This document shows positions 57,405 through 61,670 of a stretch of 64,000 nt of DNA, piece by piece (within the stretch, counting starts at the first letter, position 1; each line of letters opens with the position of its first letter). Position numbers and translations under genes: made by a program. Source of the DNA: Thermoanaerobaculia bacterium (GTDB lineage: Bacteria; Acidobacteriota; Thermoanaerobaculia; UBA5066); NCBI GenBank assembly GCA_038214715.1, contig JBBQRP010000003.1, forward strand, positions 6,209 through 70,208. The letters are read 5' to 3'. The notes beneath the pieces were generated by a model. That model was not told the DNA's origin and did not search any database. It worked only from the letters and a program-made list of their open reading frames with translations.

Positions 57405-58208
57405 ATGACCGTCGACCGCGACCCGTGGTACGCGGAGTGGTTCGGAGAGGAATACCTCGCCCTCTATCCCGAGCGCGACGACCGGGAGGCGCGGCAGCAA
57501 GCGGCGTTCGTGCGAGTCCTGCTCGCGCCGTACGCGAAGCTGGGCCGCATGAGGTTTCTCGACCTCGCGTGCGGGACGGGGAGGCACGCGGTCGCCCTGC
57601 ACGACGGCGTCGGGAGCGTCGTGGGCCTCGACCTGTCGGCGCGTCTCCTCTTCCAGGGCGGTCGGCGTCTGGGCCCGGCCCGCCCGTTCTGGGTTCGCGC
57701 GGACATGAGGGAGCTTCCGTTTCGCGCGGGCACGTTCGGGGCGGTCGTGAACTTCTTCACGTCGTTCGGGTACTTCGAGGACCTCGCCGACGACGCGCGC
57801 GTCGTCCGCGAAGTAGCGCGCCTCCTTGCACCGGGGGGCGCGTTCCTCTCGGACGTCTTCAACGCCGAGCGCGTCATCGGGACCCTCGCCGTGCGGGAAG
57901 AAAAGACCGTCGCGGGGGAGCGGGTGAGCATCCGGCGACGGTACGATCCGGTGAGCCGGCGTGTGGAGAAGGAGATCGAGATGGGCTCGGGCGAGGACAA
58001 GCGCGTTTTCAGAGAGTGCGTGCGCGCCTACACGGAGCACGAGCTGAGGACGCTCCATAGGGCGGCTGGGCTGACCGTCCGTGCCGCGTACGGGAGCTTC
58101 GACGGCGCCACGTTCGACCGCGGGAAGTCGCCGCGACTGATCCTCCTCGCGACGAAGACAATGGGGCGGCCTTCGGCGAGAGTGGGCGGTGACGAGGTGA
58201 CGAGGTGA
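57405..58208 (+). CDS. Class I SAM-dependent methyltransferase, first gene of the bsh operon (candidate bacillithiol N-methyltransferase)
   Basis: FLDLACGTGRHA motif I and GGAFLSDVFN. Stop overlaps the bshC GTG start (GTGA) within a duplicated CGAGGTGA octamer. Confidence 0.7.
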   Translation: MTVDRDPWYAEWFGEEYLALYPERDDREARQQAAFVRVLLAPYAKLGRMRFLDLACGTGRHAVALHDGVGSVVGLDLSARLLFQGGRRLGPARPFWVRADMRELPFRAGTFGAVVNFFTSFGYFEDLADDARVVREVARLLAPGGAFLSDVFNAERVIGTLAVREEKTVAGERVSIRRRYDPVSRRVEKEIEMGSGEDKRVFRECVRAYTEHELRTLHRAAGLTVRAAYGSFDGATFDRGKSPRLILLATKTMGRPSARVGGDEVTR

Positions 58209-59785
58209 CGGCGATCCCGCCGGGCCGCGTCCCGGGTATTCCCGCACTCGCGCTCGGTCTCGCGACGGGCGTCCCGGAAGTGCGCGCGTTCCTCCCGGAC
58301 ACGCCGGATCTCGCGACGATCGCGAATCGCGCGCGGGGCGTGCGGGCCGCGTTCCACCCCCACGCGAGCGTCGGCGGGGACGATCCGCGGCTCGCGGCGC
58401 TCGCGCGCGGCGAGGCGGCTGCCGTCCTCACGGGCCAGCAGGCCGGCCTGTTCGGTGGACCCGTTCTCACGATCGTGAAGGCCCTCGCCGCGGAGAAGCT
58501 CGCCGCGGACCTCCGCGCGGGCGGCGCCGACGCGGACCCGGCGTTCTGGTGCGCGTCCGAGGACCACGATCTCGTCGAGGTGACACGCCTCGTCCTGCCG
58601 ACCCACGACGGCCCGAAGGACTTCGGTCCTGAACCCGGTGCGCTCGCGGAGAACCGGCGCCCCGTCGGGCGGCTTCCGATCGGTGTGGACGGCGCGGCGC
58701 TTGCCGCCGCGGCCGCCGCGGGTCTCACCCAGCCTCCGGACGACGAGGCGCGCGAGGCCCTTACGAAAGCGCACATCGAAACGACGTTTTTCGAGGCTTT
58801 CCGGACGACGCTCACGTGGCTCCTCGCGGACGGGGGTCACACGGCGATGCCCGTCGTCGATGCCGCGAGCGGGTCGGACAAGCCGGTGCTCGTTCCTCTC
58901 GCGTCGCGAATCGTGCGGGAGCGCGCGGACGTCAAACGGCTCCTCGGGGAGCGGGGGGCCGCGCTCGAGGCGGCGGGCCATCCGCTCCAGGTCACGTCCG
59001 ACGTCGCCGCGCTGCCCCTGTTCGTCCGCGTCGGCGAGGAGAGGCTCCTCCTCCACGAATCGGGCGCCAGGATCGCGCTCAAGGGGCGCGAGGGTTCCTT
59101 CTCCGCGGACGAGGTCGTGGCGCGTTTCGAAGCCGGCGAATGGCTGCCGTCCTTCTCCGCGCTCACCCGCCCGCTCGCGGCGTCGACGCTCTTCCCCGTC
59201 GCCGCGACGATCCTTGGCCCCTCGGAGATCGCGTACTGGGCCCAGAGCTGGCCGCTTTTCGCATGGGCCGGAATCGTTCCTCCCGTGATCGTTCCGCGCC
59301 CGCTCGTGGCGCTCCTCACGCCCTCGTCGCGCAAGGGCCTCGAGAAGCTTTCGCTGCGGCTCGAAGACGTTCTCGACGGGCCCGAGTCCATGCTGAGGAA
59401 GATCGGAGCCGGGCAGGCAGGGGCGCTCCTCTCCCGCGTCCACGCGGCCGGAACCGACGCGATCCGCGAGCTCCTCTCGCTCAAGCCGGCGCTCCTCGCG
59501 GTGGACCCCGGGCTGGAAAAGGCCGTCGAGGCGACGCGTGAGAAGACGTCGTTCGCGTTCGAGAAGCTGGCGGAAAAGACGGCGAGCGCGGCGGGGCGCG
59601 CGGACGAGCACGCCGCCGCGAAGGTCGCCCGCCTTGCGGACGAGATTCTTCCCCTCGGAAAGCTCGCCGAGCGCGTGTATTCGGCGCTTCCCTACGCCCT
59701 CCGTTTCGGGCGCTCCGCCCTCGTCGGAACCCTGCGCCGGGATCTCAAGTGGAACGTAGCGGGGCTGCAGGTGATCGAGCTGTGA
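58205..59785 (+). CDS. bshC: Bacillithiol biosynthesis cysteine-adding enzyme BshC
   Basis: TGQQAGLFGGPVLTIVKAL and PAFWCASEDHDLVEV match the conserved BshC (YllA) motifs GGQQAGLLTGPLYTIHKI and FWVAGEDHDLDE. About 526 aa. Confidence 0.8.
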   Translation: MTAIPPGRVPGIPALALGLATGVPEVRAFLPDTPDLATIANRARGVRAAFHPHASVGGDDPRLAALARGEAAAVLTGQQAGLFGGPVLTIVKALAAEKLAADLRAGGADADPAFWCASEDHDLVEVTRLVLPTHDGPKDFGPEPGALAENRRPVGRLPIGVDGAALAAAAAAGLTQPPDDEAREALTKAHIETTFFEAFRTTLTWLLADGGHTAMPVVDAASGSDKPVLVPLASRIVRERADVKRLLGERGAALEAAGHPLQVTSDVAALPLFVRVGEERLLLHESGARIALKGREGSFSADEVVARFEAGEWLPSFSALTRPLAASTLFPVAATILGPSEIAYWAQSWPLFAWAGIVPPVIVPRPLVALLTPSSRKGLEKLSLRLEDVLDGPESMLRKIGAGQAGALLSRVHAAGTDAIRELLSLKPALLAVDPGLEKAVEATREKTSFAFEKLAEKTASAAGRADEHAAAKVARLADEILPLGKLAERVYSALPYALRFGRSALVGTLRRDLKWNVAGLQVIEL

Positions 59786-60552: not shown

Positions 60553-61670
60553 AGATCGGCATCACGTGCTACCCGACGTTCGGGGGGTCCGGCGTCGTCG
60601 CGACGGAGCTCGGGCACGAGCTTGCGCGCCGCGGGCACGACGTCCACTTCATCACCTACGCGATGCCCTCGCGTCTGAACGTCTTCGCCGAGCGCGTCAC
60701 GTATCACGAAGTGTCCGTGCCGTCCTACCCGCTCTTCCAGTACGCGCCGTACGACCTCGCCCTCGCGACGCGCATGGGCGACGTCGCGACGCACGTTGGG
60801 CTCGACCTCATCCACGTCCACTACGCGCTCCCGCACGCGATCTCGGCTCACCTCGCGCGCGAGATGCTCGCCCCGAGGCGCCTCGGCCTCGTGACGACGC
60901 TGCACGGAACGGACGTGACGATCGTCGGGCAGGATCGGTCCTACCTTCCCATCACGCGCTTCGGAATCGAGAAGTCCGACGCCGTGACCGCGGTCTCCGA
61001 GCACCTCAGGCGCGTCACGCTCGACGTGTTTTCTCCGAAGCGCGAGGTCGAGGTCATTCCGAATTTCATCGATCCCATGCGCTGGACCCCGGAATCGGCC
61101 AATCTCGCCTGCCGCCTCGTGCCCGCGGGGCGGAGGGTCCTGCTGCACGTCTCGAACTTCCGGCCTGTCAAGCGTGTCCTCGACGTCGTCGAGATCTTCG
61201 ACCGGCTGCGCCAGCGCATTCCCGCGACGCTCGTGATGATCGGCGACGGCCCGGACCGCCCGGCCGCGGAGGCGCTGTGTCGCGAGAAGGGAATCGCGTC
61301 CTCCGTGTCCTTTCTCGGGAACATGCCGGCCCTCGAGGCCGTGATGCCTGCGGCCGACCTCTATCTCCTGCCGTCGAACTCGGAGTCGTTCGGTCTGTCG
61401 GCCCTCGAGGCCCAGGCGTGTGGCGTCCCGGTTCTCGGCTACGCGGCGGGCGGACTTCCGGAGGTGGTCGCCCACGGCGTCACGGGTTTCCTTCGCGAGG
61501 TGGGCGACGTCGGAGGCCTCGCCGAGGACGGGGCCTCCCTCCTTCTGGACCCGGCGCGCTACGACGCCATGGCGCTGGCGTCTCGGGAGCGCGCGATCCG
61601 GCTCTTCGACGCGGACGCGATCGTCTCGCGCTACGTCGCCCTGTACGAGCGCGTTCTCGCCGCGGCTTGA
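60549..61670 (+). CDS. bshA: GT4 glycosyltransferase, N-acetyl-alpha-D-glucosaminyl L-malate synthase BshA
   Basis: [22 protein letters not shown]...[10 protein letters not shown]...LHGTDVT...[11 protein letters not shown]...[17 protein letters not shown] is near-collinear with B. subtilis BshA. ATGA overlap with bshB. Confidence 0.9.
   Translation: [373 protein letters not shown]

What the first reader, a model, noticed from the sequence alone, without database searches (positions are those of the whole stretch)
57405..61670. Four-gene translationally coupled operon methyltransferase-bshC-bshB-bshA: complete bacillithiol pathway plus a candidate N-methylating enzyme
BshA (GT4), BshB (LmbE deacetylase) and BshC (cysteine ligase) are each recognisable by conserved motifs. 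They are chained by GTGA/ATGA stop-start overlaps (58205, 59782, 60549). Bacillithiol is classically a Firmicutes/Deinococcus thiol. A complete bshCBA set in a 70% GC diderm is noteworthy. The operon also begins with a SAM-dependent methyltransferase whose stop overlaps the bshC start, which fits an N-methyl-bacillithiol synthase role (NmbA-type, as described in Chlorobi). Whether this methyltransferase is an NmbA orthologue cannot be judged without a database comparison. The MTase/bshC junction also contains a tandem duplication of the octamer CGAGGTGA that creates the overlap.
Basis: partly seen in the sequence, partly recalled or inferred. Interest (0 to 1): 0.6.

Follow-up and report, generated by a model that had tools for sequence, protein, structure and literature searches.

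The report
N-methyl-bacillithiol synthesis operon in an acidobacterium
Four overlapping genes in an uncultured acidobacterium encode the three enzymes that make the protective thiol bacillithiol plus a relative of the enzyme that N-methylates it; this is a sound annotation of a known pathway, notable mainly because the four genes sit together and the methylase is fused to the next enzyme in some other bacteria.

Summary
Window 57405-61670 (+) carries four intact genes joined by three GTGA stop/start overlaps. They follow a terminator after atpC.

- **BshA and BshB1:** both pass NCBIfam equivalog cut-offs.
- **BshC:** it passes both BshC-specific Pfam domains and hits only BshC (4WBD) in the PDB. 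It lies just under the NCBIfam cut-off, as do its close relatives.
- **The methyltransferase:** its best solved relative by a wide margin is 9RI2, the crystal structure of Chlorobaculum tepidum NmbA (CT1040). Identity is 34% over 91% of its length. All family-invariant residues and most pocket residues are kept.
- **Gene context:** the order atp operon, MTase, bshC, bshB, bshA is conserved in Thermoanaerobaculia relatives. The MTase also sits directly upstream of bshC in five or more other lineages. At least three lineages encode MTase::BshC fusion proteins.
- **The octamer:** it is real, about three copies over 23 nt. Relatives have the same overlap with one copy, so the repeat re-creates the overlap rather than creating it.

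Bacillithiol and NmbA genes were already reported in Acidobacteria in 2018 and 2025. This is therefore a new member of a known kind. The operon and fusion organisation appear undescribed in the papers I read. Enzyme activity is inferred, not shown.

The parts
57327..57359 (+). Intrinsic-terminator-like hairpin plus T-run after atpC; marks the upstream boundary of the operon.
   Evidence: 10-bp stem with 8 GC pairs, then CTTTTTTTTC. It is the only + strand terminator-like site in 56700-62900.
57405..58208 (+). nmbA-like class I SAM-dependent methyltransferase (267 aa), candidate bacillithiol N-methyltransferase.
   Evidence: Best PDB hit is 9RI2 (CtNmbA) at E = 1.5e-29, with 34% identity over residues 8-249. 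It shares all 13 invariant columns of a 53-sequence family alignment that includes CtNmbA.
58188..58210 (+). Period-8 tandem repeat GGTGACGA/GGTGACGA/GGTGACG at the MTase/bshC junction. The last copy supplies the bshC GTG start (58205) and the MTase TGA stop (58206-58208). The preceding copy puts GAGG 7 nt upstream of that GTG.
   Evidence: It is a 16-nt insertion relative to L007 and L008.
58205..59785 (+). bshC, putative cysteine-adding enzyme (526 aa).
   Evidence: PF10079 135.4 bits and PF24850 51.2 bits, both above cut-off. TIGR03998 242.9 bits against a cut-off of 265.8; 4WBD is the sole PDB hit, E = 4.6e-26, with GQQAGL, EDHD and GPxEIxYW blocks aligned.
59782..60552 (+). bshB (BshB1-type GlcNAc-malate deacetylase, 256 aa from GTG 59782; alternative start GTG 59749).
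   Evidence: TIGR04001 272.4 bits against a cut-off of 182.5; 1UAN E = 3.3e-52 and 6P2T (BshB1) E = 3.6e-50.
60549..61670 (+). bshA (GT4 N-acetylglucosaminyl-L-malate synthase, 373 aa).
   Evidence: TIGR03999 504.9 bits against a cut-off of 273.7, aligned end to end; 2JJM E = 8e-105 and 5D00 E = 6e-103.

Best explanation
This is a single four-gene operon for synthesis of N-methyl-bacillithiol in an uncultured Thermoanaerobaculia-type acidobacterium. The gene order is the reverse of the pathway order. BshA joins UDP-GlcNAc to L-malate. BshB1 removes the acetyl group. BshC adds cysteine to give bacillithiol. The first gene product, an NmbA-family class I SAM methyltransferase, then methylates the cysteine amino group of reduced bacillithiol. 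The 4-nt GTGA overlaps lie downstream of Shine-Dalgarno-like motifs inside the preceding gene. They probably couple translation so that the four enzymes are made together. Shown here: the gene structure, family membership by sequence, and conservation of the linkage. Inferred: co-transcription, translational coupling, and the chemical product.
For: Family assignments for BshA, BshB1 and BshC come. For the MTase, phmmer against all PDB sequences puts 9RI2 first at 106.5 bits, with the next hit at 51.4. 9RI2 is CtNmbA, shown in vitro to N-methylate BSH (PMC12719100). BLASTP gives 34% identity, E = 4e-34, over residues 8-249 of 267. That meets the published operational criteria for an NmbA homologue (E <= 1e-20, coverage > 80%, identity > 25%, similar length). 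The protein keeps W16, W20, R70, Y134, F135 and K198 of CtNmbA and motif I, here FLDLACGTG. In single-linkage clustering it stays in one cluster with CtNmbA up to 160 bits, linked through Paenibacillus homologues. Paenibacillus is the genus of the second enzyme verified in vitro. Context gives independent support. The order atpC, MTase, bshC, bshB, bshA is conserved at 60-88% MTase identity. Among the 80 genome loci fetched with the MTase family, all those with 40% or more identity and enough flank have bshC immediately downstream. These come from Acidobacteriota, Gemmatimonadota, Planctomycetota and Anaerolineae; linked loci at lower identity include Hydrogenedentota (L041, L058). MTase::BshC fusion proteins exist in at least three lineages. 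One identical fusion is seen on 15 contigs and is followed by bshB-bshA. No + strand terminator-like site lies inside the operon.
Against: No member of the bshC-linked MTase clade has been assayed. The verified enzymes (C. tepidum, P. polymyxa, and Polaribacter by thiol content) fall in the other two clades of an unbootstrapped NJ tree. The position of CtNmbA H32 is His in 43 of 53 family members but Glu here. The AlphaFold model matches 9RI2 only marginally better than CypM or YunM (E = 1e-18 against 2e-18, with a lower TM-score), so the fold does not discriminate. BshC scores under the NCBIfam equivalog cut-off. The cultured Thermoanaerobaculum aquaticum is listed as BSH-only in the 2025 survey. 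The MTase 3' end carries a frameshift plus an insertion seen in this assembly alone.
Confidence: 0.8

Rival explanations
1. The methyltransferase belongs to the NmbA family and works in the bacillithiol pathway, but it acts on a different acceptor or at a different step. Examples are methylating cysteine or a BshC-bound intermediate before ligation, or methylating another atom of BSH.
For: The linkage and the fusions are specifically with BshC, not with BshA or BshB. The BshC reaction has never been reconstituted, and a missing partner protein is suspected (PMC5790435). The clade-specific His-to-Glu change sits in the N-terminal cap segment.
Against: CtNmbA and PpNmbA methylate free reduced BSH directly in vitro. 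In C. tepidum, deleting nmbA leaves BSH at wild-type level, and N-methyl-cysteine was never seen. Pocket residues are otherwise conserved.
Confidence: 0.1
2. The methyltransferase has nothing to do with thiols. It is a generic small-molecule methyltransferase that happens to share an operon with bshCBA.
For: Pfam and NCBIfam give only generic class I methyltransferase families, with no specific model. The fold search returns many natural-product methyltransferases with similar scores.
Against: The margin over all other solved methyltransferases is wide. Adjacency to bshC is conserved across at least five phyla. Fusion to BshC has occurred repeatedly. The phyletic spread matches that published for NmbA.
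Confidence: 0.04
3. The junction indels (1-nt deletion plus 16-nt repeat expansion) are assembly errors or signs of decay. If so, the MTase/bshC boundary is misread in this genome, or expression is impaired.
For: The junction is seen in a single assembly only. P0001 has one member on one contig, and no other metagenome contig has the junction. Deleting one octamer would fuse the two ORFs in frame into a 790-aa product.
Against: Both ORFs are intact. The changes affect only the last 12 or so residues of the MTase, beyond the region aligned to CtNmbA. The two indels together add exactly 5 codons and restore a GTGA overlap, with a GAGG motif 7 nt upstream of the start.
Confidence: 0.06

Closest known systems
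NmbA (N-methyl-bacillithiol synthase A, CT1040 of Chlorobaculum tepidum; PDB 9RI2; also P. polymyxa PpNmbA)
   Same: Both are class I SAM methyltransferases of the same length, 267 against 266 aa. Identity is 34% end to end. They share the same motif I with Cys, the same aromatic pair Y-F after motif IV, and the same W, W, R and K pocket residues. Both co-occur with bshA, bshB and bshC.
   Different: In C. tepidum the four genes are scattered (CT0548, CT1419, CT1558, CT1040). Here they form one overlapping operon led by the MTase. The window protein belongs to a bshC-linked clade with no assayed member. CtNmbA H31 and H32 are Pro and Glu here.
Bacillus subtilis / B. anthracis bacillithiol pathway (BshA 5D00/2JJM, BshB1 6P2T/2IXD, BshC 4WBD)
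   Same: The same three enzyme families are present. BshA and BshB1 pass equivalog models, and BshC has both BshC-specific domains.
   Different: In B. subtilis, bshA and bshB1 share an operon with mgsA, and bshC lies elsewhere with panE (PMC5790435). No methyltransferase is involved there. The window BshC is divergent, with about 62 unmatched N-terminal residues and a score just under the NCBIfam cut-off.
Predicted N-Me-BSH producers among Acidobacteriota (Chloracidobacterium spp.; Hammerstad 2025 Dataset 1A)
   Same: Same phylum and the same four gene families.
   Different: These are the only four RefSeq Acidobacteriota species listed with NmbA. Their protein accession numbers are not consecutive, which hints at scattered genes, but I did not check the genomes. 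The window is from Thermoanaerobaculia, whose cultured member is listed as BSH-only.

Membership tests
NmbA (bacillithiol N-methyltransferase, CT1040 family) | Class I SAM-dependent MTase core with motif I VLDIAxGxG, and Y134/F135 after motif IV. | tested here: met
   PF13649 and PF08241 match. Motif I reads FLDLACGTG. Y123 and F124 align to Y134 and F135.
NmbA (bacillithiol N-methyltransferase, CT1040 family) | Published operational homology criteria against CT1040: E <= 1e-20, similar length, coverage > 80%, identity > 25% (PMC12719100 methods). | tested here: met
   BLASTP gives 34% identity and E = 4e-34 over residues 8-249 of 267, against 266 aa for CT1040. The phmmer E-value is 1.5e-29. 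The CtNmbA sequence used covers residues 15-263, reconstructed from the printed alignment.
NmbA (bacillithiol N-methyltransferase, CT1040 family) | Closer to NmbA than to any other characterised methyltransferase. | tested here: met
   9RI2 scores 106.5 bits and the next PDB sequence 51.4. The protein stays in one single-linkage cluster with CtNmbA and Paenibacillus homologues up to 160 bits. A full reciprocal best-hit test against the C. tepidum genome could not be run.
NmbA (bacillithiol N-methyltransferase, CT1040 family) | Residues placed at the SAM/BSH binding and entry sites of CtNmbA (W16, W20, H31, R70, K198). | tested here: inconclusive
   W8, W12, R60 and K189 are conserved. H31 is Pro here and varies across the family. 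Neighbouring H32 is His in 43 of 53 members but Glu here.
NmbA (bacillithiol N-methyltransferase, CT1040 family) | Co-occurrence with bshA, bshB and bshC in the same genome. | tested here: met
   All four genes lie in one operon.
NmbA (bacillithiol N-methyltransferase, CT1040 family) | Narrow 'basket' Cap-domain architecture of the crystal structure. | tested here: inconclusive
   The AF2 model has pLDDT 91. Foldseek ranks 9RI2 first, but with TM 0.63/0.74 and E-values nearly tied with CypM and YunM. The authors report that AF models differ from the crystal in the Cap domain.
NmbA (bacillithiol N-methyltransferase, CT1040 family) | SAM-dependent conversion of reduced BSH to N-Me-BSH. | not testable with these tools
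   This needs an enzyme assay or thiol profiling.
BshA (TIGR03999) | Equivalog HMM above the curated cut-off, aligned full length. | tested here: met
   504.9 bits against 273.7, residues 1-370 on model positions 1-374. 5D00 and 2JJM hit at about E = 1e-103.
BshB1 (TIGR04001) | Equivalog HMM above the curated cut-off, and better than BshB2, MshB and Mca. | tested here: met
   272.4 bits against 182.5. BshB2 scores 42.5, MshB 33.3 and Mca 21.8. 6P2T hits at E = 3.6e-50.
BshC (TIGR03998 / PF10079 + PF24850) | BshC-specific Rossmann-like and coiled-coil domains above Pfam gathering scores. | tested here: met
   PF10079 135.4 bits and PF24850 51.2 bits, each against a cut-off of 27. 4WBD is the only PDB hit.
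BshC (TIGR03998 / PF10079 + PF24850) | NCBIfam equivalog score above the curated cut-off. | tested here: not met
   242.9 bits against 265.8. Syntenic orthologues in relatives score 227-233. MTase-linked BshCs of other phyla score 245-410, and unlinked ones 451-463. The shortfall looks like lineage divergence. This is an annotation threshold rather than a biochemical feature.
BshC (TIGR03998 / PF10079 + PF24850) | Cysteine addition to GlcN-malate. | not testable with these tools
   The reaction has not been reconstituted in vitro for any BshC (PMC5790435).

The most novel reading that the evidence does not exclude
The tight and repeated pairing of this methyltransferase clade with BshC may reflect a physical partnership. 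The evidence for pairing is the 4-nt overlaps, the adjacency in at least five phyla, and at least three separate fusion lineages. Under this reading the methyltransferase domain channels nascent bacillithiol, or helps the still-unreconstituted BshC reaction. The natural fusion proteins would then be a practical route to reconstituting BshC activity in vitro.
Probability: 0.1. Interest if true: 0.65.

Novelty: new member of a known kind. Interest (0 to 1): 0.35.

Why it matters
The result predicts that an uncultured, high-GC Thermoanaerobaculia lineage uses N-methyl-bacillithiol as its redox buffer, whereas the 2025 RefSeq survey lists the one Thermoanaerobaculia species it includes, Thermoanaerobaculum aquaticum, as BSH-only. 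This extends the predicted range of the thiol. The more useful by-product is the genomic-context evidence for a whole clade of unassayed NmbA homologues. They sit directly upstream of bshC, or are fused to it, in Acidobacteriota, Gemmatimonadota, Planctomycetota, Hydrogenedentota and Anaerolineae. That evidence supports their assignment independently of homology. It also gives compact four-gene or three-gene cassettes for heterologous production of N-Me-BSH. Finally, it supplies natural NmbA::BshC fusions that could help with the unsolved BshC reaction.

Tried and rejected
1. **Fold comparison as a specificity test.** The AF2 model (pLDDT 91) hits 9RI2 first. CypM, YunM, CcbJ and others are nearly tied and have better TM-scores. 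I judged this not discriminating.
2. **Are MTase-linked BshCs a discrete divergent subfamily?** TIGR03998 scores are 227-243 for the window's clade, 245-410 for linked BshCs in other phyla, and 451-463 for three unlinked ones. This is a trend with few data points, not a clean split. I treated the low score as lineage divergence.
3. **Independent confirmation of the octamer junction.** The metagenome scan gave 22 hits, none in an MTase/bshC context.
4. **Statistical significance of the tandem octamer alone.** It is not significant: 4 found against 2.9 expected.
5. **Regulatory RNA upstream or inside the operon.** Rfam gave nothing relevant. No sigma-70-like promoter was found.
6. **GC-skew location of the origin.** There was no clear signal in 64 kb.
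7. **The second methyltransferase in the window (14484-15239) as a rival NmbA candidate.** It is unrelated, E = 0.03.
8. **First structure-prediction attempt.** I repeated it without that row.
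Full report
**Observation**

The region holds four co-directional ORFs on the + strand:
- a methyltransferase, ATG 57405 to TGA 58208, 267 aa
- bshC, GTG 58205 to 59785, 526 aa
- bshB, GTG 59782 to 60552, 256 aa, with an alternative in-frame GTG at 59749
- bshA, GTG 60549 to 61670, 373 aa

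All three junctions read GTGA, a 4-nt overlap of start and stop. Each internal start follows a Shine-Dalgarno-like motif inside the upstream gene, read directly:
- GAGG 7 nt before the bshC GTG
- AGGTGATC 5 nt before the bshB GTG
- GAGGGGGGG 8 nt before the bshA GTG

A terminator-like hairpin with a T8 run (57327-57359) lies between atpC and the first gene. No other + strand terminator-like site lies within the operon. No Rfam family or sigma-70-like promoter was found. The 3' end of bshA overlaps a convergent adenosine deaminase gene by 40 nt.

**The three bsh genes**

| Gene | NCBIfam result | Other evidence |
|---|---|---|
| bshA | TIGR03999, 504.9 bits (cut-off 273.7), end to end | B. anthracis and B. 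subtilis BshA structures at about E = 1e-103 |
| bshB | TIGR04001 BshB1, 272.4 bits (cut-off 182.5), far above BshB2, MshB and Mca | 1UAN and 6P2T |
| bshC | TIGR03998, 242.9 bits (cut-off 265.8) | PF10079 and PF24850 both pass; 4WBD is the only PDB hit, E = 4.6e-26 |

The BshC alignment to 4WBD keeps the GQQAGL, EDHD and GPxEIxYW blocks. About 62 N-terminal residues are unmatched. The syntenic BshCs of relatives also score under the NCBIfam cut-off, at 227-233 bits. MTase-linked BshCs of other phyla score 245-410, and three unlinked BshCs score 451-463. I read the shortfall as divergence of this high-GC lineage, not as a misassignment.

**The methyltransferase**

Pfam and NCBIfam give only generic class I SAM-methyltransferase families. 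Against all PDB sequences the top hit is 9RI2_A at E = 1.5e-29 and 106.5 bits, covering residues 7-253. The next hit scores 51.4 bits. 9RI2 is the crystal structure of C. tepidum NmbA, CT1040 (PMC12719100). That enzyme and the P. polymyxa homologue N-methylate reduced BSH in vitro. They do not act on BSSB, glycine or GSH.

BLASTP gives 34% identity, E = 4e-34, over residues 8-249. This meets the criteria those authors used to call NmbA homologues.

I built a 53-sequence alignment of the window protein, diverse homologues and CtNmbA. It has 13 invariant columns, and the window protein shares all of them. The equivalents of CtNmbA W16, W20, R70, Y134, F135 and K198 are kept. H31 varies across the family. 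H32 is His in 43 of 53 sequences but Glu in the window's clade.

A second methyltransferase in the window, at 14484-15239, is unrelated to NmbA.

The AF2 model has pLDDT 91. It ranks 9RI2 first in Foldseek, but nearly tied with CypM, YunM and CcbJ, so the fold does not discriminate. The authors themselves note that AF models differ from the crystal in the Cap domain.

**Relatives and context**

Source names of close homologues place the organism in Acidobacteriota, near Thermoanaerobaculia. In relatives at 60-88% MTase identity the order is conserved. It runs atp operon, MTase, bshC, bshB, bshA, then usually a convergent adenosine deaminase. The MTase/bshC overlap is 4 nt in these relatives too.

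I scanned one genome per species with the family alignment and obtained 80 loci. tblastn with the window's Bsh proteins gave the following.

| Arrangement | Lineages |
|---|---|
| bshC immediately downstream of the MTase | Thermoanaerobaculia and other Acidobacteriota, Gemmatimonadota, Planctomycetota, Hydrogenedentota, one Anaerolineae MAG, Ca. Hatepunaea |
| MTase not linked to bsh genes | Bacteroidota, Paenibacillus, Holophaga, Ignavibacteria |

Unlinked is also the arrangement in the organisms studied experimentally. CtNmbA scores 108-168 bits against all these proteins. It scores 111 bits at 34% identity against the window protein, and 125-129 bits at 29-31% against Flavobacterium homologues. 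At thresholds up to 160 bits, all but a handful of these proteins, including the window protein and CtNmbA, form one single-linkage cluster.

An unbootstrapped, midpoint-rooted NJ tree shows three groups:
- a Bacteroidota clade
- a clade with CtNmbA, Ignavibacteria and Paenibacillus
- a large clade where linkage to bshC is the rule, which includes the window

**Fusions**

The representative search found proteins of 807, 751 and 670 aa with an N-terminal NmbA-like domain and a C-terminal BshC domain. The 807-aa form has relatives of 807 and 820 aa at 68-72% identity. One identical sequence occurs on 15 contigs from several sources, followed by bshB and bshA. The three fusion lineages are only 30-42% identical to each other. 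These fusions are therefore real and recurrent. They support a functional tie between this methyltransferase family and BshC. I found no mention of the operon or the fusions in the NmbA papers I read.

**The octamer**

Compared with L007 and L008, the window has a 1-nt deletion about 30 nt before the ancestral stop. It also has a 16-nt insertion of two extra GGTGACGA units. The net change is 5 codons, 267 against 262 aa. The last 12 or so residues of the MTase are rewritten, beyond the region aligned to CtNmbA. The GTGA overlap is re-created at the third repeat copy, with GAGG at good spacing.

Relatives have the same overlap with one copy, so the repeat does not create it. Deleting one octamer would fuse the two ORFs in frame into a 790-aa product. 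Exact 8+8 tandems are not unusual in this window. No independent contig confirms the junction.

**Comparison with what is known**

Hiras 2018 (PMC6282198) reported bshA-C and nmbA orthologues in Acidobacteria. Hammerstad 2025 lists 51 RefSeq Acidobacteriota species with bshABC. Four of them also have NmbA, all Chloracidobacterium. Thermoanaerobaculum aquaticum is listed as BSH-only. The pathway in a high-GC diderm is therefore not a surprise. The window adds a Thermoanaerobaculia-type lineage with the full set in one operon. The same survey lists Chloroflexota and Fibrobacterota as lacking the pathway, whereas MAGs of Anaerolineae and Fibrobacterales carry these genes.

**Verdict**

This is a new member of a known kind, with an operon and fusion organisation that appears undescribed in the papers I read. 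The product N-Me-BSH is inferred from homology and context at about 0.8 confidence. The BshC reaction is still unreconstituted (PMC5790435), which gives the BshC-linked and BshC-fused methyltransferases some practical value.

Noticed in passing
L009 582-3005; L112-L114 5001-7424; proteins P0246, P0269, P0276, P0277, P0250, P0183: Natural NmbA-like::BshC fusion proteins of 670-820 aa occur in at least three lineages that are only 30-42% identical to each other. One identical 807-aa sequence is found on 15 contigs and is followed by bshB-bshA. The NmbA papers I read do not mention them.
   Followed up: partly
L018 (Anaerolineae), L041/L058 (Hydrogenedentota), L042 (Ca. Hatepunaea), L061 (Fibrobacterales), L040/L070/L086 (Planctomycetota): MTase-bsh clusters occur in MAGs of phyla that the 2025 RefSeq survey lists as lacking the bacillithiol pathway (Chloroflexota, Fibrobacterota) or does not list at all.
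   Followed up: partly
window 61631-61670: The 3' end of bshA overlaps the 3' end of a convergent adenosine deaminase gene (PF00962) by 40 nt. A similar 34-65 nt convergent overlap is annotated in L001, L005 and L008. No terminator-like site follows bshA.
   Followed up: partly
window 32573-50047: The window is origin-proximal core chromosome. dnaA (40290-41762), dnaN, gyrB and gyrA lie on the - strand. yidC, mnmE, mnmG, parA, parB and then the atp operon lie on the + strand. The thiol operon lies about 16 kb from dnaA. GC skew gave no clear origin signal.
   Followed up: partly
window 14484-15239 (+): A second class I SAM methyltransferase (252-aa frame) is present. It is unrelated to NmbA (BLASTP E = 0.03 against CtNmbA), and its function was not examined.
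   Followed up: partly
L102, L103, L105, L109 (metagenome contigs): The same octamer, GGTGACGR, forms long tandem arrays in unrelated metagenome contigs. This suggests the unit is prone to slippage in general. Their context was not examined.
   Followed up: no
window 57471-57473 (MTase residue E23): The position of CtNmbA H32 is His in 43 of 53 family members, but Glu, Asp or Asn in the window protein and its four closest relatives in the alignment. It lies in the N-terminal cap segment next to invariant R24.
   Followed up: no
window 58205-58390 (BshC residues 1-62): The BshC N-terminal 62 or so residues match neither TIGR03998 nor 4WBD. In the fusion protein P0183 this segment is cut to about 40 residues, so it seems variable or dispensable.
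   Followed up: no
window 75-3946, 6968-8137 and 9711-11645: Several long high-GC3 frames (203-446 aa) have no Pfam match at E <= 1e-5. They were not examined further.
   Followed up: no
L001 6694-6954: Relatives at 65% MTase identity have an 86-aa ORF with no Pfam hit between atpC and the MTase. The window has a 220-nt gap with a terminator there instead. I did not check whether the small ORF is real.
   Followed up: no
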